A stretch of DNA of 64,000 nt from Callorhinchus milii. Its lineage: Eukaryota. Under the pieces are notes generated by a model, which was given only the letters and a program-made list of their open reading frames with translations, ran no database searches and was not told where the DNA came from. Of the stretch, positions 1,331 through 57,825 are shown in pieces. Both the position numbers and the translations under genes were made by a program. Location: NCBI RefSeq assembly GCF_018977255.1, contig NW_024704744.1:16430001-16494000 (forward strand), read 5' to 3'. Every line of letters starts with the position of its first letter. Position 1 is the first letter of the stretch.

Positions 1331-3219
1331 CTGAGAAGGTGACGACATCTTTGTGCCAGTGGAAGTCAGAAAAGATAGTTGCACATTGCAACCAGCTAGA
1401 GGTGCTGTAAAGCCATGGATATTCAATATATTTTGGCAAAATAGTGGGGAGGTGGAATCAAGAGTCACCACATAATTTATTAGTGGATATTTGCCTCAAT
1501 GAAATCTCAGTCCTGATTAAGATTATATTGAAATAATAATCCCAATGCTCATCTCTCAGGTTTGCTTTTCACCTGGCTTCCGAATTGCAAAGTAAAATCA
1601 TGTCTAAAAAAACATTGAGTGCAGAATGATGTCTGAACAATGAAGGCATATTGTACAAGACTTACCCTGGTCTCGCCATGTGCATTCCTTATCTGTGTAC
1701 TGTATAATGAGGTTGAAAATGAAGCATTCACAAACTGGAGGTGGCTGCAGTAATTGTAACTTTCATCTTGGGTTTGAAATCGCATGATATGTTAGCACAC
1801 ACTAAAAATGTGAAACAAAATGACAGAACCATATTGACTCAACATTAAGTGTGCATTTTGAATAGGGCTTAGTGTAGTCCTTTCTTTCCCTAATAATTGG
1901 TCCTATAGATGCTTTAATCATTGCGTGGTAATGCATGACGGCTGTCTTTTAAATTCACAGCATAAAATGCAGATTTGCAGCAATTATGGCAAATATGAAG
2001 CTCACATCAAAATAACCACAGACAGGATGATTCTGGGCATGGGTATTACCGGTAAGGAAAGATAAAAGTGAATAAGACACTGAAGGCAATGACTTCAATG
2101 ATTAAGCTTGGCTCTCTCATAAAGGATATCCTCCCCCATTCTGGAAATGATACCGAGACCACAAAATAAGCCTGATTGTTAACGATTTTTTTTCTGCATT
2201 GTTGAAAATCCTTGAACACACACCCTGAGTGCCCATGTTATGTTGGTAACAAGAATCTGCTTAGACTTGGGCAAAAAATAGATGCTCCAAATTCAGATTC
2301 CAGCCTCAAACAAACATACTTAATCTGTCATCTGAACTACACTGCACGTCCTTGGTTGTATATTTAACTTGTGTCTGATGCACGGTGCACAGGGAATATG
2401 CAAACGTTATAGTTCCCATCTTTATTGCATGCTTCATTCATATTGCAGAGAATCCCCAAGCCTGTATCAGTTGACCTCTCCTCTGACAGCAATCTATTTT
2501 GATACAGGAAATCCATTTTGTCTAGCATTACTTTTAATGAGTTCTGCAACCGTATGGCCTCTTCCTGTGACTCACACTGCGTTTCCCAGACCGGAGACTG
2601 TGGTTTTGTTTCAAATTTAATCCTAGTTGTTCTGCCCGTTGAACACTCTAGCATTTTTGGGGGGTTTGGGAGGGACTTTGGGGGGCTGCAGCCTTCACAG
2701 TAATTTTCATTTGTATGAAAAACATTTTTAAACACACGGTATATTTTATTTGCTCTATAAAAAAAACCTGACATATGAAATAGAATCAAGAGGGGAAAAA
2801 TAAATTACGATTACATTTGACGCCAGTTAATGGGAGTGTGGTTGATGGGGGCAGCCCTTTATGGGGATATATTTGGCTCCGCTTAATTCCCGATCCATTT
2901 AAGTCAGCACTGAATGGTTTATTTTTCTTAATGCAGGTAATTTGATAAAAAGGGACAATGTCATTTCCTGAGCATCTGAATTAGCGGGCTTCAGATCTGC
3001 GCTAAAAACGTGCGACTTCAAGGAAGGTTGTGAGATGCTGTTCTTTCTTTAAAGGTTGACTACATGCAGATTTTCTCCCCACATCTACCGCCATTTCCCT
3101 TCTCTCCCCTTTATATTGGAGAAGGACAGCAAACTCGATTCTGCAACATCACATGTTGACCCAATCAATGGAGCTAATGCTGCTTTGGTACCTTTCTCTT
3201 GACATCTGAAAAAATGTAA

Positions 3220-23900: not shown

Positions 23901-24034
23901 CTCTGCTCATATTAAATGACATGAAAGGGTGAAATTTGCATATTTTCAATGTGGTTGTATTGAGGCTTGGATACTCTTAAGTACGGTGAGGATTTCTACA
24001 TGTATCAGTTACCAGCTGTCCAAGTGTTTTTTTT

Positions 24035-24778
24035 TGCAGATAAGTATGTGGGCAGCAGAGTTCTGAATGAGCTGGATCTTTTGAATAGTGGAGCTGGGGG
24101 AAAGGCGAGAAGTGAATTTGAGTAATCCAGGCAGGAGGTGACAAACGTATGAACGAAGGTTTTGGCTGCATTTGGGTTAAGGTACGGTCAGAGATGGGCA
24201 ATGTGGCAAAGGTGGAAGAAGGCAGTCCTGGTCAGGGACTAGATGTGGGGGAGAAAGGACAACTGGGTTCAAACTGGACGCCTAGATTGCGCATTGGTTC
24301 AGTGAGTGTGAGGGAGAGCCCAGGGAGGTTGAGTTCAGATCCGCAGGAGTGAAGATGTTGATGGGAGTCAAGAAGTTTGGCTTCTGTCTTGTCCATATTC
24401 AGCTGCAGGAAGTTTGCACTCATCCAGGCCCTGATGTCTGCCAGACAAGCTGATAGAACATCAGCGAACCAGGAGTTGGTACTGGAGGAGGAAAAGTAGA
24501 TTTGTGTGTCATCCTCGTAAATGTGGAAGTTTACCTCGTGTCTGCGGCTGACATCGTCCAGAGGGAGCACATGGATAAGGAAAAGAAGAGGAGCCCTGGG
24601 GTACCCTGTAGGTGACCAGGCGGGGGCAGGAGGAGAAATGGAGGCAGTCGGTTAAGTAGGACTTGAACCATGCGAGTGCGGTCCCACTAAAACGGATGAG
24701 GCAGGAGAGACGGAGGAGGAGGCTAGAGTGGTCGACTGTGTCGAATGTGGCAGAGGGATCCAGGAGGACGAGGAGGTA
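24035..24778 (-). mobile_element. L2 RT-domain fragment
   Basis: ORF 24232-24570 has FHIYEDDTQIY..CLADIRAWMSANFLQLNMDKTE; upstream LLDPSATFDTVDH-like motif. Confidence 0.9.
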
Positions 24779-26534: not shown

Positions 26535-27649
26535 ATCGTTATGGTCTTATAGCAAAGCTCAGGTGGCCTATGATATTTTAGCCCTATGAGAACCACAGTA
26601 CTGAGTGCTATAAACAAGTTCTCTTTCTTCATAGAGCAAAGTAAAACACAAGATTGCATTTAACAATTCAGATTAATTAGGCTGCGATTCCAATAATTAA
26701 TCAGATTGGACTGATTAGCTATGACTATTCTGGCTCTTGGCTTTGATGGTGAAGGCAGATTTTAATAGTTCAAAATCTTTGGCAAACTGAATCAATTAAG
26801 GAACCAAAATTTCAACTTTGGATTCAACTTGAATTGCTTTTGAATGGTCCAGAATTGAGTCACAGATGCTCAGCCCCACTAATTAAATCATTTGGTTGGT
26901 TTCTGCTTTGCAATTACATCCCACTGTCATTTCAACCTTTCTCTACCCTTCTCACAAATTGCAGCATTCAAAGTAGGGAGAATTGAATGGACATTATGAC
27001 TGCCCCAGACTTTGTGACTACAAGAATCTATGGGTCAAAAGATGTTTGTTCCACCTATTAACAGAGACTTAGTGTTGGGAACTGGGTGCATAGTCCACTG
27101 ACCACACTATCCTTTTCGCATCTGTATCTGAAGTCTGAATTGAGCACAGCCTGATTTGCTGAAAGTCTCTTCTATTTCCTGGTTGTAAAGACTCCATGTG
27201 GAATGAATCTGGGCAGTCTCAGCATATGGTGGGCACAAGTCACAAGTCCACTGCATAAATTGCTCAAATGTGGCACAAATTAGTTTGTACCATGTCCTAT
27301 TCATAGCTAACTTTCAGTTACCGTGCTTTCAGCCACCATACCCCGAAATTCTGGAAATCTGTCCCTCAATCCCTCTGCCTTGCCCCCTCCTTCCCCATTT
27401 TCAGATCATGTCTCAATACCTTCCTCTTTGACCGGGCCTACAGTCACCTCCCTATGCTTAGAGTCAGGCTCCACAACTGTTAAGTGTTCCACCGACACTA
27501 CCCTGCATGAAGAGAGCTATATAGATCAAGTTGTTGTTGTAACTCAATAATACCTAATGTTGATGAAATATCGTATTTAATTGGCAGACTAATGCAATTA
27601 TGTGTTTGCTGAGCATTTAGAATTTGCTAGCTCTAATGGAGGAGTAGTT

Positions 27650-28700
27650 CTCAGCAAACGACTTCTCCTCCAGCCCCTGCACCATCTTGTGCGTTGTTCC
27701 TCAGGGCTCTGTCCACGGTCCCCTCCTCTTCACACTTTACATGCTCCCCTTTGGTGACATCACCTGCAGATATGGGGTAAATTTCCACATGTATGCGGAT
27801 GACACCCAACTCTATCTCTCTGCCTCCATCCTCAACTCCAGGACCACTGCTGTCCTGACAGACTGCCTGTCCGACAACTTTCTCCAGCTGAAAGTCAGCA
27901 AGACCGAGGGCCTCCTGATTGGCTCACGCCAGAGACTCTGCACCTCAGGCGTTGGCAGCATCAGCCTCCACGGCTGCACATTCAACCTCACTAAGCCAGT
28001 CAGGAACCTGGGTGTCTTGTTTGACCCTGAACTGTACTTTCTCCCCCACATCCGCGCCATTGCCTCACCCCTCAGGCTGCCGAAACCCTTACCCACGCAT
28101 TTGTCACATCAAGGCTCAATTATGGAAATTCCCTCCTCATCGGCCTTCCCAACTCTTCCCTTCACAAGTTGCAGATCATCCAAAACTCTGCAGCTCATGT
28201 ACTCTCACACACCAAGCACAGTGACCCCATCACTACCACCCTCGCTGACTCCACTGGCTCCCCATCCCCCAGAGGATCGAATTCAAGATCCTCATCCTCA
28301 CCTTTAAGGCCACCCATGGCCTTGCCTCCTCCCACCTCTCTGACCTGTTGACTCCTTACCAACCTGCCCACTCTCTCCGTTCAGCGGGCTCCGGTCTGCT
28401 CCATGTCTCCCGCCTGACCCGGCCTACCATCGGTGGCCGGGCTTTCAGCCTCTCTGCCCCCACACTCTGGAACTCCATCCCACGGTCCCTTCGCCTCGCT
28501 TCCTCCCTTGCCTCCTTCAAGGACGGTCTCAAGACCCTCCTCTTCGATCGTGCCTTCGATCAACCTCCCACCTGTCTGCCTTCCCTCACCCCTACCCCAC
28601 CCCTCCCCCATGCTCGGGTCCTGACGCCTGACTGTCCAGCACCTTGAGACTTCCACCCGACGTGAAAGGCGCTCTATAAATGCAATTTTATTGTTGTTGT
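27650..28700 (+). mobile_element. L2 LINE, 5'-truncated within RT
   Basis: ORF 27687-28307 [27 protein letters not shown]; C-terminal motifs in 28169-28647; stem-loop and (GTT)n tail. Confidence 0.95.
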
Positions 28701-30572: not shown

Positions 30573-30874
30573 GTTTCTTTCTGAAACCTTTACAATTACT
30601 TAATGATTTTTTAATACAGCTAATATAACTGTAATATTAATGAGTTATTTAATATAAATTTTAATTTTCTGTGTGTAAGGGGCATACATGTGTAAAACTC
30701 TGGTTTGGATACTCTTAAGTGTGATGATAGGTTTTCTCATGAATTGGTTTCTGCACCAAAAAAATTGCTCACGATAAAAAAAACTAGAAGCAATTTCACC
30801 CCAGACTATATTTCGACATCGTTGATACATTTCCTGTTTCGCAATACGCAATCTAATGCAATCCTATTGAGAAC

Positions 30875-31235: not shown

Positions 31236-32478
31236 AAGTCTAAATCACAGAGAACAAACGATTTACAGCAACTTTTAATGAAATTGCAATTGGAACTACT
31301 GTACAAATCAGCGATGATAATGAATATTTAGCCCCACAGCATGCAATCGAGGATAGGCAGTTTAATTGAAGCAATCAACCTAGGGTGTTATTCTTCAATT
31401 GGGTTGCCATAGTCTTGATCATGCCCAATGCACCTCTGAGTGTCCATTATTGTTTAATATCCACATAAATCCCTGCACAGGTTGAAAGCCAATCAGGGAC
31501 TGGCCAAGTGAGATCACAACTGGAGCACAAATCTTCATCAGAATTATAATAAGTAGTAATTCACTGTAACGAAAATGCTCTCTTAATTCATCTCTTTATG
31601 GGCATAATGATAAATGTTAGACCAGGGTTTCGTTTTATGAGTATCATTAGAACTGTAATGACTTCAGTGATATCTATGTGACTCAGTGCAATTCTGTTAA
31701 TGGGGACAATGAAGCATGTATTTTACAGAACGGACTAATGCTGATGTGTTTTGATGTTTGAACGCGAGAAAAAAAGTTACGCTCGATGAGCACAAACATT
31801 TTGATGTAGCAGAAGCAAATAAGGTGCAGGAAGCAGTATTGTTCCATTCAGTCAGCTCCATGAAACGGAAGGATGTCCCATCATGCCAGCCTCCCATGCA
31901 GCATTCAGTTTATATAATGGCTTATTTTCACCCACAAAATATACAGTCAATTCACTTTACAATATAATTCTGTGAAGTGCTTTGAGATGTCTCGAAGACA
32001 TGATAAGGTGCTATATCAAATACAAGGATTATTATTTTTTTTGTGTGGGTTATTTCTCAGAAAAGAAAGTTCAGTGTAAATACTGTTTCTGAAGAGTGTC
32101 AAAGGAGAATTTTTTCCTGCCATTGAGACAGCAACACGGGTGGTAAAGTGGTCTGATGGATAAATATAGGATAAGACACATTTCTCATCTCAACAACATC
32201 TTTCCACTTCACCTCTTGCCAGTTTTGTAAGGTGTGAGCAACCAAACAGAAAAGAAGAGCTAAGCACTTAACGAATGTATAATAGATTGTAAACATGTGA
32301 TGAACAAAATGTGCTCAGACAGGAATAAATTAATCACTGGAAAAGGTTATTAAGCAGACAAGAAAGTTTACATCTAACAGAGGCTGAAAAAATATTTAAT
32401 ATTTAAAATTGATTTTAATTTATTTTAATTAAAGGAGGGGGTGGAGAACAATGAGGGTATTATAGATCGAAGCCAGGA

Positions 32479-33316
32479 CCACCAACTTGCTTTAGAGTTG
32501 CCCTCCTAGTGCTGGTCAACAGAACTCTCTCTGAGGTACGCAGTCCATCACTGATCAAGAGTGCAATTGTGGTTTCTCTCCAGAAGAAGAGTGACGCTAG
32601 TGATACTGAGAACTAAAGAGGGATCTCATTGATTTCATTGGCTCTTAAAGTAGTGCTTGGTGTTGTCATTTCATATATGTCAAACACATTGGAGGCTTAT
32701 GGTTTGATCAGGGAGGAACAGGCTGAATTCCATTCTCATGAGGAGTGCGTGGGGCAGATTTTAGTTTTGTATGAGATTGTGGAATGTCGTAAGGCTCAGG
32801 GGAAACCCACTTAAGTTGTATTTATCGATTTCCCAAAGGCTTTCGACCTATTGTGTCAGGCAGACGTCATAATGAAACTAGAAGCCATTGGAATACATTG
32901 CCAGATTATGGATTGAATTCAGAATGTGTATTGCATCCATGCAAGGGTTGATAGAAAGGGGAGGAAGGCATGGCTGTCTATTCTCACCCACCTTATACGA
33001 TGTCTTCACCAATGACATACTAGATGACATGGTGGGGGAGACTTGACGTATGTGTTCCAGGCATTCCTGACAGGATTGTGAAGTTTACGTTTGCGGATGA
33101 TAGGTCCACTCCAAGACGCTACCCTATGTGAAGGGTGCTATATAAATGCAAGTTGTTGTTGTTGTCGTTGAGGGTATTGATGGCAGATACAAGGGGCATC
33201 AGTCCCAATTCTTGATTTTTAGCGGTATCTGGGGGGTGTGGTGGACATCAAGTTTTGTTTGGACACTGTCCTTAGGCACAGTGCTGAGAAAGGGCAAAGG
33301 GCACTCTCACATGAAG
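32479..33316 (+). mobile_element. Degenerate non-LTR reverse transcriptase, not L2/CR1 (RTEX-like), interrupted by an L2 tail
   Basis: Frame from 32479: AIVVSLQKKSDASDTEN*RGISLISLALKV..LIREEQAEFHSHEECVGQILVLYEIVECRKAQGKPT*VVFIDFPKAFD; then FSPTLYDVFTNDILD..VCVPGIPDRIVKFTFADD (FADD 33090-33101); resumes at 33190 with QGASVPILDF*RYLG..RHSAEKGQRAL. RT identity is firm, clade is inferred. Confidence 0.8.
33104..33170 (+). mobile_element. Ultra-truncated L2 tail
   Basis: cactccaagacgctaccctatgtgaagggtgctatataaatgcaa(GTT)n; near-identical tail at about 53040-53100. Confidence 0.85.
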
Positions 33317-38145: not shown

Positions 38146-39639
38146 AGGAAACATTTGGGGGCAAGAACAGACTTCCCATTAATACATCTAATACTCACAG
38201 ATAATGTTGAAAACTGTGCCTTGGGTCCACATTTATAAATATTGTTAAGTCTCTTATATACAGCAGTTAAAATTGATTCTGCAGTTAAAAACACTTCCAC
38301 TGCGATTTTATATGTTAAACAAAAGTCTTCCAGCTTCCATAGCACAGAGGACATCAATCTTTGCTGACCAATCTCAGCAGGTCCTTTAGGGTGATATACA
38401 ACATACAAGTATGTTTTTGGTCAGCCGCATCTCTGACACATTCAGAAAACTATCACCATCTTTAAGAAAATCCAAACCACACTGTGAGCTCCACTGTGTA
38501 TGCCACCTACATATGGAATTTCCAATGTCTGGAATGAAATATGCATTCTCTTCACACCTTGCTTGAGCTAATCCCAGAGAGTGTTAGCCACAGTTTGGCA
38601 AGATCCAAGGCTTGGAGACTCCAGAGCGTAGGTTTACTGCTGGAATCTAACCAGCTAAAACTGCATAGCTGCCAAAGAGAGCACTGTCTGGCCATCTTCC
38701 TACTGCTTGTCCAGCTAGGACTAAGCACATCATCTTGGAGTCAGCTCAAGTCCAAGGGCACCCAATTTACCTCCCCCACCCAAGGAGGTTTCGCCCACAA
38801 AATATACAATTAATTCACTTTGCAGTATTTTCTGTGAAGCGTTGGGAGGTGTCTTGAAGAAGTGATAACGCTAAATCAAATGTAAGGATTATTTTTCATT
38901 ATAGTTACTAGCGTGTTATTTAGCACAGGTTCAAACTCACAGTAGTGGATAGTAGGTATCAGGAACTCAATGAGAGTAAATACATTAGAGCATTGCCACC
39001 ATCCTCCTGCCTGCAGCTCGGACACATCCCTACTCATTGAACAATAGTTCCACTAGTTCGAGGTGTTGAGCTTTCCAAAAAAATCTTCACAGGGAAAGAA
39101 GAAAGTGTGTTAATGCAGGATGCTCTTGTTCGTCTCCATGTAGCCAACAGAAGAGAGCAGATACATGGGAGCAGGTCACCTTTTGGCTATGGCATTGGAT
39201 GGGGGTAACAAGATGCCCCAAAGAGAGGAAGACAATGAACCAAACAAGAAGGGAAAGACACTGGAAAGTTCATGTTCATAAATTGTTTTCTTTCAGTGAA
39301 AAATAAATGAGTAAGTTACCTGGTAGTTCAGTCAGTTTCACTTTCTAGGGTTTGGGACCAGAAGGCTCTGTGTTAGAATGCCGGTTGTTTACAATGTTGG
39401 TCAAATGAGTTCTGAGTTTAATTGAGGTCCGGATAGGCCAAGTATTGGGTTGCTTCCAGGAGAGTGTTGAAGATTGCATTTAATTCCAAGCCATCTGCTC
39501 TCACATTGGGTCCAATATATTGTGACCTATGAGATAATCACACATCTTTAAACAGTCCATATCCCAACAGCCTCTTAATTATTTACAGTGGAGCTAATGT
39601 AAAGTCCTTTACTGCTATTAAATCATCCATCTTAGTACA

Positions 39640-42663: not shown

Positions 42664-43391
42664 CAATAAAGTTTCCATAACACGTTTAAGTGACAAAGCA
42701 TGAGACCTCAATGAAGCATGTAACCATGCAAAATAATAGAACAGGAGAAAATTGGGTATGAAACGTAATCGTGCATTGTAACTGTAAATCTTGAATTTGT
42801 AAATAAACTATTAATAATCCTTACATTTGCTATGGCGCCTTTCATGCCAAGAAGAGAAGAGAGGTCTCAAAGCGCTTCCCAGAAATTTACTGTAAAGTGT
42901 TGTGTCTGTGTATTTTATAGGCGAACTTGGGAGCCAATTTGCACATAACAATGTCCCATAAACAGCCATGAAGTGAATAGAGGGCTTTGGGATTAGGATG
43001 TGGAACCTAAACACCAGCACAGACTAGTTGGATACCATGTTTCTGTGCTGTAACAATCTATGTAATTCTCTGTGTTTACATGACAAACAATGGAATTTCC
43101 AGTCATTCTTGAGTCTAATGCGTATCTGTACAGTTCTTTCAAGTGAAGATTTCCATCTCCAAATCACAGCTGGCAGATTCCTGCTTGTAACCACAATAAT
43201 TCACAGCAAGGATTCAGGTTGCAACAGTGGGATGTGAATTAAATTCTCATCAGGTGTGTAAATGAGGTGAACTGCCAGCATTTTGTTGTTTATGCACACA
43301 TTTGCAGCGAAACATCAGGCATCTCAACGTTCCTTATTGCCTTGTTAATTCTTTTAACACCACATTGCAACTTGAGCTCGTAGTCCAAGGT

Positions 43392-44915
43392 AACAACAAC
43401 AACAACAAGATTACACTTGTATAGCGCCTTTCACGTCGGGAGGACGGCCCAAGGCGCTGGACAGCATTTCAGACCCGAGCCGGGGTCAGGGGGGAGAAGG
43501 GAGGGGAGGGGAAGGGGGGTGGCTGATGGCATGGTCGAAGAGGAGGGTCTTGAGGCGGGACTTGAAGGAGGCTAAGGAGGGGGCGAGGCAGAGTGATTGG
43601 GGGATGGAGATCCAGAGGTTGGGGGCAGGGTGGCTGAAGACTCTCCCGCCAATGGTAGGGTGGGTGGGTCGGAGGACGTGGAGCAGGCCGGAGCCGGCTG
43701 AGCGGACGGAGTGGGTGGGTTGGCAGGGGGTTAGGAGGTCACAGAGATAGGGTGGGGTGAGGCCATGGAGGGCTTTGTAGTTGAAGACCAGGATTTTGAA
43801 CTGGATCCTCTGAAGGATAGAGAGACAATGGAGTCGGGCGAGAATGGGGGAGATGGGGTTACGGAGTTTGGTGCGGGAGAGGACACGGGCTGCAGAGTTC
43901 TGGATTATCTGCAGCCTGTGGAGGGAGGAGTTGGGAAGGCCGACAAGCAGGGCATTTGCATAGTCGAGCCTGGAGATGATGAAGGCATGAACAAGAGTTT
44001 CAGCGGCCTGAGGGGTGAGGTAGTGGCGGAGTCGGGCGATGTTACGCAGGTGAGGGAAGGCAGAGCATGGCTTGGATGTGGGGAAGAAAACAGTTGAGTG
44101 TTGAACAAGACACCTAGGTTCCTGACTGGCTTGGTGAGTTGAAGTGTGCAACCATGGAGGTTGATGCTGCCAGAGCCTGAGCCAATCAGGAGGGCCTCAG
44201 TCTTGTTCACATTCAACTGTAGAAAGTTTGCCCTTATCCAGGACTTGATGTCCGACAGGCAATCTGTCAGGACAGCAGTGGTCCTGGAGTTGAGGGTGGA
44301 GGCAGAAAGATAGAGTTGGGTGTCAGCCGCATACATGTGGAAGTTGACCCCATGTCTGCGGATGATGTCACCAAGGGGGAGCATATAGATATTAAAGAGC
44401 AGAAAGCCAAGGACAGAGCCCTGGGGGACGCCAGACATGACAGTGCAGGGGCTGGAGGAGAAACCATTAGAGGCAACAAAGTGGAGACGGTGAGAGAGAT
44501 AGGAATCGAACCAGGCAATGGCAGGTCCGCAAAGATTAAGTAAGAAGGAGAGGCGGTGTATGAGGATGGAGTGGTCGACAGTGTCGAAGGCGGCAAAGAG
44601 TTCGAGGAGGACGAGGAGTCAGAGGGAGCCCTGATCACAGATGTTCAGAATGTCATTAGTGACTTTGACCAGGGCTGTTTCTGTGCTGTGGGCAGCGCGG
44701 AAGCCGGATTGAAGGGGTTCAAAGAGGGAATGGCGAGAGAGAAAGGAGGGGAGCTGGGACGCGATGACTCGTTCCAGACCTTGAAGAGGAATGGGAGATG
44801 GGGCGGTAGCTGGAGAGTAGTGATGGGTCCAGGGAAGGTTTTTTCAGGATGGGGTGATGACAGCTGTTTTTAGGGGGGTGGGAACTGAACCGGTTGACAA
44901 GGAGAGGTTGATGAC
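43392..44915 (-). mobile_element. Young L2 LINE, longest copy (about 1.5 kb, most of RT), frameshifted
   Basis: ORFs 44719-44952 (ILKKPSLDPSLLSSYRPIS), 43905-44438 ([17 protein letters not shown]), 43486-44151 ([14 protein letters not shown]); stem-loop and tail. Confidence 0.96.
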
Positions 44916-45439
44916 ATCGGACCTTCAGTGCAGTGATGTGGGAGGGCTGCATTGACAGATATACTGCCCTTCAGATGAAACACTAAACCAACTTTTTGAT
45001 AATTTTCACTATTTGTGTACATTCAGAAGTGTACAATTTACAGGTCCTGCATGGTTTCTTGAGCGGAATGAAGCTCATAAAACCCAAGGAAAATGGTCAC
45101 TTTTGTGCTCACAAGAGCTATTGACAATATAGTTTTTTTATTCTGCCTGAAAGTACACATTAACTGCAGCTCCAATCCACTAATCTCCCCGTCGCTTTAC
45201 AATTGGCGTGCAGTCATTTTGCACTTTATGTCACATACAGTCTACCATAATTCACAGCTTGATTTTTAACATTTAACAGGTTCTGAGGGAGAAACAGTGT
45301 CTCAGGTTTCAGTAAATCTGGCCAAAAACCTTCAAGGATTATGTTGGAAAAGCCTCTCAATTGTGTGAGAGGAATTCCCGTTTATTTGCCTATTTGCCTG
45401 TTTGCTCTTATGAGAACCTTCTAACTCCTCATTCTTAAT

Positions 45440-47842: not shown

Positions 47843-50059
47843 TCTGATTGGGGGCTTGAATCCACATTTGTGCAACTCTGATTCTGTATTAAGCATGTCA
47901 CTAAAACTTTTTGCTTTTTAGATTCCAGTATTGTTTAAACTCCAGGGCAAAGTGTTCTCCACCGATAACTTAGAAGGTTTCAGGAAAAGAATTCCGCCTA
48001 GAGAAATCCTGTGATTTTGTGAATAGAATGGATACAATTCAGTTCAGAATTACATTTTAATAACAGAACATATGATTAACCTCAATGAACAGTAATTATT
48101 GTGATGTTTTTGCGGCATTTCAACTTGATAACACAGTACACAAATGCAAGGATTATTATTTTATTAATAATAATTTTGTGCCATTATTCAATATTGTTTG
48201 CTAAGCTAGGTGTTGAAAAGATGGTATTTTTGGTCAGCTGGGCAGAATTCTTGCTTAAGAGTATCCAAACCAAACTGTGTGTTCCACACATGTATGCCAC
48301 CTACATATGGAGATGTCTGGATTGGAGTGCATACTCTCTCCCTGCAGGGACACATCCTGCTTGTCACCTTGCAACTAGCTCAGCTTCAAGGAGACACAGC
48401 TTGCCTTCTCCTCTATCCCCCCAAAGGAGGATAGTCAAAAGTAATCACTCACTGAGCTCATGCGTACATTGAACAGATAGATGAAGAGGCAACAGTCCAA
48501 CCTATGATACCATCTGAGGAACAGCACAGAGATGGAGGAACAATATCAATTTGGCTATAAATTGAACACATTGTAGTGGTTTTATTGTTTTGACTGAAAG
48601 TGTTTCAGAAAAAATCAGGTTTTCTCAAATATGCCAGTAGCAATTTAAGCTGGGATTTATTCCCAAATAACATAAAAGCGGGAGTTAATAAAAGAGGATA
48701 GAAGATGGTAAAGTGATGAATATGAAACTGATCCCAAGGGTATAAAGCATTGGATAGGTTGTGAATCTCACATGCATCTAAAAGCCATGTAGGTACTGCT
48801 CACAAAAAGGACAAATTGTCTTTAACAATGTACCATCGAAAGAAGTCTATATATCGCACTTCTGATTCATTATATTTCATGAGTTTGACAAAAATTGATA
48901 TCAAAAGAAACATTTATTTTTATTATGTTACTACATCAATTGTCTTTTATTGTGGTGAACTGTGAAGGCAGAATGCTGTTTCTGATAAGTGATTTTTATT
49001 TCTCTCTAGCAGGTTTTTACAATCAGATTTGAGGTTAGAAGTTTGTCCATCTCCAGCCAGCATAGGTTTTACTCTCATTGGGACTGCCCGAGAACAGGCT
49101 GAGATGAGAATACCCTACCCACAGGTATATGAAAGGTCTGTTTGCAATTCAGAGCAGGAATCAGACTGCATCAAAATGCTGGTGAAATGAACATTCGCAT
49201 AATTACACTTGTAATCCTTTGAAAAATCTTCCTGATGTGGAAGGTGCTATGTCAAGTAAAAAGATTATTATTATTACAGTTTAAATCACTGTAATAATAA
49301 TAATAATAGATAGTTTCTAAGTGGTTTTCAGTGATAGGTCAGACAGACCAACAATACTGCCACATTATATATGAATGGATGTTACGCTTCTCAGTATATT
49401 TGAACTTCCCAAAATAACTGCTTTCTTCAGGAGGTGGACATTTTGTATATCAAAGCTGTAGGTTATCACCAGTATTGCAATCGCATTAATAGCAAACATT
49501 TTATTTATGGCATTTAAGTCTATTTTAAGTACGAAACATATTCTTATATATTCAGAAACAATTTTCAATCTCATGCCTTTATGATTCATTCCATCACTTC
49601 ATTTTGATCTAATTATTTTATTTTGGTCTAACTGGATATTATTATTACCTAAACATTCCTTGCTATTCATTTTTAGACCACACTGTCTAGCTCCACCCTG
49701 AGATGATCTTCCCCCTACCAGACCAGTGTGACATTTTCCATTTTCCACACTAGCTATCCTATGGTTTCTCTGGATGACGTTGACAATTTATTTGCAACTT
49801 AATGGCTGTGTGCCATCAGTATCCACTAGGTATCCAAACTCATAGCAAGTACAGCCAATAGATAGACAGAGAAGACTTTCATTCCATCAATTCACCCAGA
49901 AGTTACACCAAATTGATTAAACTGTGTTGTTGAACTGAGACATTAGTATGAGCACCATCTGGCCTGTTTTTCTCTAATTTGTTCCATACAGAAGTGATAT
50001 AAGTTTTTTTGGTCTATGGAAATTAAGTGAGGAGGGCATTGAGCTTGGGTACCATTCAC

Positions 50060-56885: not shown

Positions 56886-57825
56886 TGGCTCCCTGATGTA
56901 TACTTTAGTTTTATATAATGAGTGTGACCTCGAGCTACAGTGACGCAGCCTCATGGGGCCACAAAGCAACACAGCAATCTGTCATAGCAACTGTGATGGC
57001 TGGGCAGTGCTGCTGAACCATCTCACAAACCCAGACAAGCCATTTTACAACAAAAATGTTACATTTATACAACACCTTTCACGTCTCAAAGTGCTTTACA
57101 CACCTGACAGGGAGCCCTCATTGGGGCTGAGGAGAGCGGAGGAAGGTGGACGTTGGGAATTGGGGTGGGGGGGGGTGGGGTGGGAGGGGGACGGAGGTGA
57201 CCCAATGCGCGTTTGAAAAGAAAACTTTTATGTGGCGTTTAAAGGTGGGGAGGGATGAGGGGTGAGATGGAGGGCTGGAGTTTCAGAGGGTGGAGGTAAG
57301 AATGGCTGAAAGTCTGCTCGCTAACTGTGGATCATGGACGAGTCAGGTGGGGGACATGAATCAGGCTGCTGAGTAGAGCTTTCAATTAGCGAGCAGGCTT
57401 TCAGCTATTCTCACCTCCGCTCTCTGGAACTCCAGCCCTCCATCTCGCCCCTCATCCCTCCCCACCTTTAAAAGCCACATAAAAGTTTTCTTTTCAAACG
57501 CGCATTGGGTCAGCTCCCCCCACTATCCCCAACCCCCTACCCGCCCCAATTCCCAACCTGCACCTTCCCTGCTCTCCTCAGCCCCAATGAGGGCTCCCTG
57601 TCAGGCATGTCAAGCACTTTGAGACGTGAAAGGTGCTGTACAAATGTAACATTTTTGTTGTTGTAAAATGGCTTGTCTGGGTTTGTGAAATGGTTCAGCA
57701 GCACTGCCCAGCCATCACAGTTGCTATGACAGATTGCTGTGCTGCTTTGTGGCCCCATGAGGCTGCGTCACTGTAGCTCAAGGTCACACTCATTATATAA
57801 AACTAAAGTATACATCAGGGAGCCA
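56886..57825. repeat. Large inverted duplication (arms about 56886-57325 and 57385-57825, spacer about 60 bp)
   Basis: Arms are reverse complements from tggctccctgatgta to gctcgctaa; mirrored ORFs 56953+ and 57758- translate almost identically; each arm is about 160 bp unique DNA plus an L2 3' end. Confidence 0.98.

What the first reader, a model, noticed from the sequence alone, without database searches (positions are those of the whole stretch)
32479..33316. Fossil reverse transcriptase of an atypical (RTEX-like) non-LTR lineage
Seen: a long, mostly in-frame RT with N*RGISL, EEQAEFHSHEECVGQ, YEIVECRK, FIDFPKAFD, SPTLYDVFTND, VCVPGIPDRI..FADD and RYLG. The EEC.GQ..LYEIV.RR and V.VPG...I..L.FADD signatures differ from vertebrate L1, L2, CR1 and BovB-type RTE. 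From memory they resemble RTEX-like elements of algae, early-diverging fungi and invertebrates. Inference: either a deep relic lineage surviving in a slowly evolving fish genome or a horizontal acquisition. An L2 tail sits right after FADD, where the following RT segment is missing.
Basis: partly seen in the sequence, partly recalled or inferred. Interest (0 to 1): 0.7.

Follow-up and report, generated by a model that had tools for sequence, protein, structure and literature searches.

The report
Extinct microbe-type LINE in a vertebrate
This is a broken piece of a dead but very abundant jumping gene whose named relatives come mostly from fungi, microsporidia, algae and plants and none from vertebrates, so it likely entered this animal's ancestors by an ancient transfer, though no donor was found and plain inheritance is not excluded.

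Summary
Window 32436-33307 (+) is a decayed LINE reverse-transcriptase fragment, with a 67-bp L2 tail standing where 137 bp are missing. It is identical in four other samples, so it is host DNA. It belongs to one extinct family: about 150 broken RT-bearing matches and, by extrapolation, some 60,000-110,000 mostly short A-tailed ends. Two subfamilies lie 0.09 and 0.13 from their own consensus; copies decayed neutrally. The family had one long frame: RRM-like domain, AP endonuclease, RT, CCHC knuckle. In RT trees it sits in a well-supported but star-like lineage with fungal, microsporidian, green-algal, yew, choanoflagellate and many unnamed environmental elements (40-52% identity), apart from this genome's CR1 and RTE/BovB (about 31%). 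No vertebrate-named protein was found, and no donor either. Ancient horizontal entry is somewhat more likely than vertical survival but is not shown. Membership of RTEX proper could not be tested against Repbase. The scan has already found what looks like the same family on several other pieces of this genome. New here: the fused RRM-like domain, the two waves, and the link from RT to the abundant A-tailed repeat.

The parts
32436..33102 (+). RT fossil, first part (pre-RT region to FADD); 76% identical to the family majority sequence; 3 stops in the main frame, two frameshifting deletions
33103..33169 (+). 67-bp 3' end of an L2-type element with a TTG-repeat tail, in place of 137 bp of RT; no target duplication seen
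   Evidence: family D5; a tail of this kind follows RT frames at 27560-28700 and 43380-44990 whose motifs I recall as L2
33170..33307 (+). RT fossil, second part (through YLG); 83% identical to the family; the copy ends here, without its own 3' tail
38410..39073 (-). separate 5'-truncated 3'-end copy of the same family, A-tailed, interrupted by a SINE
48252..48437 (-). separate 3'-end fragment of the same family
30666..30741 (+). short 3'-end fragment of the same family
23964..24023 (+). short 3'-end fragment of the same family (weak, E 2.5e-6)

Best explanation
The stretch is a dead, doubly truncated copy of an extinct, very abundant single-frame LINE family that likely entered this vertebrate lineage long ago by horizontal transfer from an unidentified non-animal eukaryote. 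Shown: the family encoded an AP endonuclease, a reverse transcriptase and a CCHC knuckle in one frame, left 5'-truncated A-tailed copies, spread in at least two waves, and its copies then decayed neutrally. Predicted from a model of a relative: the N-terminal domain has an RRM-like fold and would bind the element's RNA, the job ORF1 does in other LINEs. Inferred from known LINE biology: it copied itself by target-primed reverse transcription. Inferred and unproven: the horizontal origin. The L2 tail is a later insertion, likely trimmed by a deletion that also took 137 bp of RT.
For: Family: 40 places at 69-79%; about 149 family matches among 150 scored by protein, longest open frame 273 aa; majority vote of copies gives a stop-free frame of 837 aa and the endonuclease motifs upstream. 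A-tailed, 5'-truncated ends; one 6-bp target duplication. Neutral decay: synonymous share of private changes 266 of 939 (0.283) against 0.294 expected; between subfamily majorities 11 of 20 synonymous, p=0.015. Lineage: inside a clade with fungal, microsporidian, algal, yew, choanoflagellate and unnamed elements, support 99/91 and 98/94 with the mixture model. No vertebrate name among 111 and 115 hits; none of the animal-named short hits carries the EEC signature, while five Smittium and one fern protein do. Three foreign relatives used as queries found only this one family in the genome. RRM-like fold: model residues 43-148 match a GUCT domain (Z 9.5, rmsd 1.8, 72 aligned) and three RRMs (Z 7.9-8.1); copy L114 keeps the end of this domain in frame (E 2.7e-4 in a set of 21 frames).
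Against: No donor: the best RT identity is 50-52% over 300 aa or more, to unnamed sequences, little above the 34-48% seen between the plant, fungal and algal members themselves. A fungal/microsporidian sister was weakly rejected (p-AU 0.046). A choanoflagellate member puts the lineage next to animals. Two animal-labelled proteins carry the signature, from a nematode assembly (3,971-bp contig) and a mosquito assembly; they may be contaminants or real. Only 12 of 111 and 18 of 115 hits have an organism name, and fossils do not appear in protein collections, so absence from sharks, rays and bony fish is untested. An RTE-X fossil predates jawed vertebrates (PMC9004415). The age cannot be placed relative to the roughly 400-My shark-chimaera split.
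Confidence: 0.55

Rival explanations
1. Deep vertical relic: the lineage is as old as eukaryote supergroups, passed through the animal stem, survived as one lineage in this slowly evolving fish line and was lost or decayed in most other animals.
For: Star-like tree with no close sister; choanoflagellate member; members in several kingdoms at similar distances; RTE-X fossils in early jawed vertebrates and the argument that patchy TE ranges often reflect loss (PMC9004415 passages).
Against: No vertebrate-named member, although more distant animal RTEs were retrieved in the same lists; only one family of the lineage found in this genome; 47-52% RT identity to a yew and to environmental elements is high for more than a billion years of separation (my inference; other LINE clades give 24-37%).
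Confidence: 0.33
2. An ordinary, already catalogued animal RTEX family (kin of L4/L5/ALINE or of cnidarian and amphioxus RTEX), looking odd only because reference sequences were missing here.
For: RTEX is known in vertebrates (PMC5753468 passages). Single-frame brown-algal elements are curated as RTE-X with best hits to animal RTEX (PMC12477816 supplement). A family this abundant is likely in some repeat library (inference).
Against: 29-34% RT identity to the animal RTEX-like rows against 40-52% to the non-animal lineage; monophyly with them weakly rejected (p-AU 0.033), though the RTEX-like label of those rows is recalled from motifs. Animal RTEX ORF1 carries an esterase and never an RRM in Repbase (PMC3905857 passages), while this lineage has a fused RRM-like domain.
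Confidence: 0.1
3. Contamination or assembly artefact from a fungal or microsporidian parasite.
For: Relatives come from parasites and gut fungi.
Against: Single contigs of 1,128-1,136 bp in two other samples span flank, RT and L2 tail with no difference, and all four samples cover it; copies lie on many chromosome-sized contigs and are interleaved with host L2, CR1 and SINEs.
Confidence: 0.02

Closest known systems
Unnamed single-ORF LINEs of Smittium, Zancudomyces, Cucumispora, Amphiamblys, Picochlorum, Taxus, Adiantum and Salpingoeca (protein records)
   Same: Same RT signature (Q.GF..EEC, VPG..GLLFADD), same order of domains, same N-terminal extension; one clade in RT trees.
   Different: Only 40-47% RT identity to the named members; none is a supported sister; this family is extinct and sits in a vertebrate genome at high copy number.
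RTE-X elements of Ectocarpus (RTEX-1/2_Ec32, PMC12477816) and LINE/RTE-X of Batrachochytrium (PMC9926174)
   Same: Non-animal elements labelled RTE-X; the Ectocarpus ones have a single EN-RT frame and abundant short 3'-end derivatives.
   Different: Ectocarpus elements end in (C)n, this family in an A-rich tail. Sequences could not be compared: the FASTA supplements are unreadable here.
Animal RTEX clade (L4, L5, ALINE in human; PMC5753468)
   Same: APE-type LINE of the wider RTE group, present as old fossils in vertebrates.
   Different: Esterase-type ORF1 in animal RTEX against a fused RRM-like domain; low RT identity to rows I recall as RTEX-like. No true Repbase reference was tested.
Human L1
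   Same: APE + RT + CCHC, A-tail, 5' truncation, target duplication; L1 ORF2p is the top structural match of a relative's model.
   Different: 17% identity in that match; weak sequence match (E 0.0087); L1 has a separate ORF1.

Membership tests
APE-type non-LTR retrotransposon (LINE) | Non-LTR reverse transcriptase domain | tested here: met
   Pfam RVT_1; family frame with FADD and YLG
APE-type non-LTR retrotransposon (LINE) | AP endonuclease upstream of RT | tested here: met
   Motifs in the family majority sequence; Pfam Exo_endo_phos in 8 of 8 intact relatives scanned; fold match Z above 20. Absent from the window copy, which is truncated.
APE-type non-LTR retrotransposon (LINE) | A-rich 3' tail and 5' truncation | tested here: met
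APE-type non-LTR retrotransposon (LINE) | Target-site duplication | tested here: inconclusive
   One clear 6-bp case, a tail copy inside a SINE; other copies too old or not examined
RTEX clade (Repbase) | RT groups with Repbase RTEX references (RTclass1) | not testable with these tools
   No Repbase sequences held; Ectocarpus FASTA unreadable; Kapitonov 2009 not held
RTEX clade (Repbase) | RT groups with animal RTEX-like proteins at hand (label recalled from motifs) | tested here: inconclusive
   Separate in both trees; p-AU 0.033, marginal, and the label is not verified
RTEX clade (Repbase) | Separate ORF1 with SGNH esterase, as in animal RTEX | tested here: not met
   98 of 110 relatives with a long N-terminus share an in-frame domain before the endonuclease, RRM-like in the model; no esterase in Pfam scans. 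The family's own extreme 5' end was not recovered. Algal RTE-X are also single-frame, so this feature is not strict.
RTE / BovB | RT in the RTE clade | tested here: not met
   Outside the RTE clade of this genome's elements and flatworm RTE; 31-34% identity; BovB label recalled from motifs
CR1 / L2 | RT in the CR1 group | tested here: not met
   31% to this genome's CR1; the family RT has no tblastn hit to the window's L2 copies at E 1e-3
L1 / Tx1 | RT in the L1 group | tested here: inconclusive
   No L1 row in the trees; weak match to human L1 only
Fungal Deceiver / Inkcap clades | RT groups with the type elements | not testable with these tools
   Only the name Deceiver was found in print; no sequences
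Horizontally transferred element | Tree position at odds with host phylogeny | tested here: met
   Nested among non-animal and unnamed elements
Horizontally transferred element | Closer to a donor than host divergence allows | tested here: not met
   Best 50-52% over 300 aa or more, unnamed; no supported sister
Horizontally transferred element | Absent from sister vertebrate genomes | not testable with these tools
   No other vertebrate genomes searchable; the run search finds near-identical DNA only and returned one organism

The most novel reading that the evidence does not exclude
An undescribed LINE clade, defined by an RRM-like domain fused ahead of endonuclease and RT in one frame and spread over fungi, microsporidia, algae, plants and choanoflagellates, crossed from a microbial eukaryote into the germ line of a cartilaginous-fish ancestor, stayed active under purifying selection through two waves and left about 100,000 copies, a few percent of the genome.
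Probability: 0.42. Interest if true: 0.72.

Novelty: new variant of a known kind. Interest (0 to 1): 0.42.

Why it matters
A LINE jumping from a microbial eukaryote into a vertebrate and becoming a major repeat would be a rare cross-kingdom event; a 2025 fungal survey calls the frequency of such transfers an open question. If instead it is vertical, it shows a LINE lineage that most animals lost. Either way the family gives a parent for an abundant unclassified A-tailed repeat and many dated insertion markers. The single copy in this window is itself an ordinary dead fragment.

Tried and rejected
Homolog search with the degraded window frame alone found nothing; an alignment of 20 in-frame pieces was needed. 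A first alignment of scattered fragments was unusable. Viral contigs: 138 pattern matches, no relative. Metagenome contigs: one distant locus at 29%. ESM Atlas gave only generic RT clusters and nothing for the N-terminal domain (score 0.81). An apparent shared 5' boundary in mid-endonuclease was an artefact of a rearranged copy and vanished on re-extension. No host exon was found: of 60 of the 123 window ORFs scanned, only three RT fossils matched Pfam. Literature searches showed no description of this family in a cartilaginous fish; Repbase, Dfam and subscription journals were not searchable.

Full report
Observation. The main frame, 32479-32931, has 151 codons and 3 stops and matches Pfam RVT_1 at E 3.4e-6. 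Against the family majority sequence the copy aligns over 32436-33102 (76%) and 33170-33307 (83%). Between them stand 67 bp that end in a TTG repeat and replace 137 bp of RT. A tail of this kind follows RT frames at 27560-28700 and 43380-44990 whose motifs I recall as L2. The stretch is host DNA: four other samples of the same organism, from one study, hold 94-99% of its words, and in two of them one contig spans flank, RT and L2 tail without a difference. I did not test the host's identity; the L2/CR1/tRNA-SINE landscape fits a fish-like vertebrate, and earlier notes call it a cartilaginous fish.

The family. A DNA search of the own genome gave 40 scored places (this copy included) at 69-79% from 328 candidates. 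A protein search scored 150 of 5,006 candidates; nearly all are this family, and none has an open frame over 273 aa. A majority vote over 39 ten-kb loci plus the window copy gives a stop-free frame of 837 aa through RT to a CCHC knuckle. With 22 more loci it extends through a full AP endonuclease to 4,068 bp; the extreme 5' end was not reached. The 3' end is several hundred bases long and A-tailed, and most independent copies are short 3' pieces. I counted 38 chains in 326 kb of flank, 28 of them starting in the last kilobase, and 4-5 in the 64-kb window. This extrapolates to roughly 60,000-110,000 copies; flanks of old copies are not a random sample, and some chains may be parts of the anchor copy.

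History in the host. Non-CpG distance to the majority is 0.08-0.19 in 40 copies, 0.19 for the window copy. I sorted 27 of 40 copies by eye into an older set (13, with the window copy; 0.131 to its own majority) and a younger set (14; 0.089); 13 were left out. Private changes are neutral (266 of 939 synonymous, 0.294 expected), while the two majorities differ by 11 synonymous and 9 replacement codons (p 0.015, groups chosen after seeing the data). So the element replicated in this lineage under selection and each copy then decayed. Of 45 gaps inside copies, 22 hold SINE, 13 L2 and 3 CR1 sequence (overlapping counts); one young tail lies inside a SINE with a 6-bp duplication. No calibrated rate exists for the host. 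The shark figure of 7e-10 is per generation (PMC10587355, abstract and passages). With an assumed 0.3-1.0e-9 per year the waves fall about 90-430 My ago, which spans the 187-My and 400-My splits quoted in PMC12952989 (passages).

Relatives. With an alignment of 20 in-frame pieces, the word-based searches gave 111 long and 115 short proteins (only about 8,000 candidates scored each time) and the full HMMER search gave 1,058 at E 1e-10, of which 150 were listed without names. I looked up 30 proteins. Named carriers of the EEC signature or members of the clade are Smittium, Zancudomyces, Cucumispora, Amphiamblys, Picochlorum, Taxus, Adiantum, Salpingoeca, two bacterial-labelled metagenome bins, and single records from a nematode and a mosquito assembly. 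No vertebrate name appears, but only 12 of 111 and 18 of 115 rows name an organism. The best identity is 60% over 127 aa and 50-52% over 300 aa or more, all unnamed.

Trees. From 213 RT rows (12 near-duplicates dropped; rows under 280 aa left out, among them the nematode, mosquito, fern and Smittium records) I chose 70 for IQ-TREE LG+G4 and 36 for the mixture model. The family lies in a clade with support 99/91 and 98/94, apart from RTE/BovB, CR1 and a set I recall as animal RTEX-like (one row is from a pseudoscorpion). Inside the clade the tree is a star, and the family has no sister. Forcing it with the RTEX-like set (p-AU 0.033) or with the fungal/microsporidian group (p-AU 0.046) is weakly rejected; both groups were named after a first tree. 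No L1 row was available. Queries with three foreign relatives found only this one family in the genome: 11 of the 12 candidate loci I checked match it, and the twelfth is CR1.

Architecture and mechanism. Intact relatives are mostly 1,200-1,500 aa on contigs of 4-6 kb. Of 110 with a long N-terminus, 98 share a domain ahead of the endonuclease (14 of them seeded the profile), and copy L114 keeps its end in frame. An AlphaFold model of relative P0074 gives this part a beta-alpha-beta-beta-alpha-beta order at pLDDT mostly 75-94, matching GUCT and RRM domains at Z 7.9-9.5; these are modest scores from a whole-protein search. I infer an RNA-binding role like that of ORF1 RRMs (PMC3905857, passages). 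Target-primed reverse transcription follows from known LINE biology and fits the A-tails, 5' truncation and the one duplication.

Comparison with print. RTEX relics are known in human (PMC5753468, passages), and an RTE-X fossil predates jawed vertebrates (PMC9004415, passages and supplement passages), so 'RTEX in a vertebrate' would not be new. Ectocarpus has curated single-frame RTE-X (PMC12477816, passages and supplement table; its FASTA files could not be read and may settle the clade). Chytrids have LINE/RTE-X (PMC9926174, passages). Microsporidia exchange DNA transposons with animals (PMC4202319, passages). I saw passages of PMC3411680, PMC4350176 and bioRxiv 2025.06.16.659975; none of those passages describes this family. 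The searches showed no description of it in a cartilaginous fish.

Earlier notes. At least six notes on other pieces of this genome describe what looks like the same family, and two more describe an unclassified A-tailed repeat of about 600 bp. Their sequences are not shown, so identity with my family is inferred. They are not independent support.

Verdict. A real, ordinary dead fragment of a real and unusual family. The lineage assignment is firm, the RTEX label is open, and horizontal origin is favoured at about 0.55 against 0.33 for vertical survival. Interest 0.42.

Noticed in passing
window 56886-57825: About 940-bp near-perfect inverted repeat, arms 81-98% complementary; possibly a MITE-like or palindromic element.
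   Followed up: no
window 24235-24651 (-): Another RT fossil, Pfam RVT_1 E 3.3e-9; clade not determined.
   Followed up: no
window 3701, 26460, 35045, 37476, 47220, 63938: Six tRNA-like heads; the five on the - strand lie at copies of one abundant repeat with an AAT-rich tail, as expected for tRNA-derived SINEs.
   Followed up: partly
G000 small contigs C119, C184, C189, C192, C219, C604, C1526: Near-intact RTE-group LINEs of several kinds cluster on small unplaced contigs, unlike the CR1 hits on large contigs; young families or foreign DNA in the assembly.
   Followed up: no
L041, about 2675-3147 in the element's orientation: A young tail copy of the family (91% identity) inserted inside a SINE with a 6-bp duplication, showing overlapping activity.
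   Followed up: yes
proteins P0011, P0119, P0055, P0087, P0370: Related LINE proteins are labelled as nematode, mosquito, bacterial and archaeal records; at least the prokaryote labels are likely misbinned eukaryotic DNA.
   Followed up: no
L033 (G000 C13): A rearranged copy with RT pieces placed upstream of the endonuclease.
   Followed up: partly
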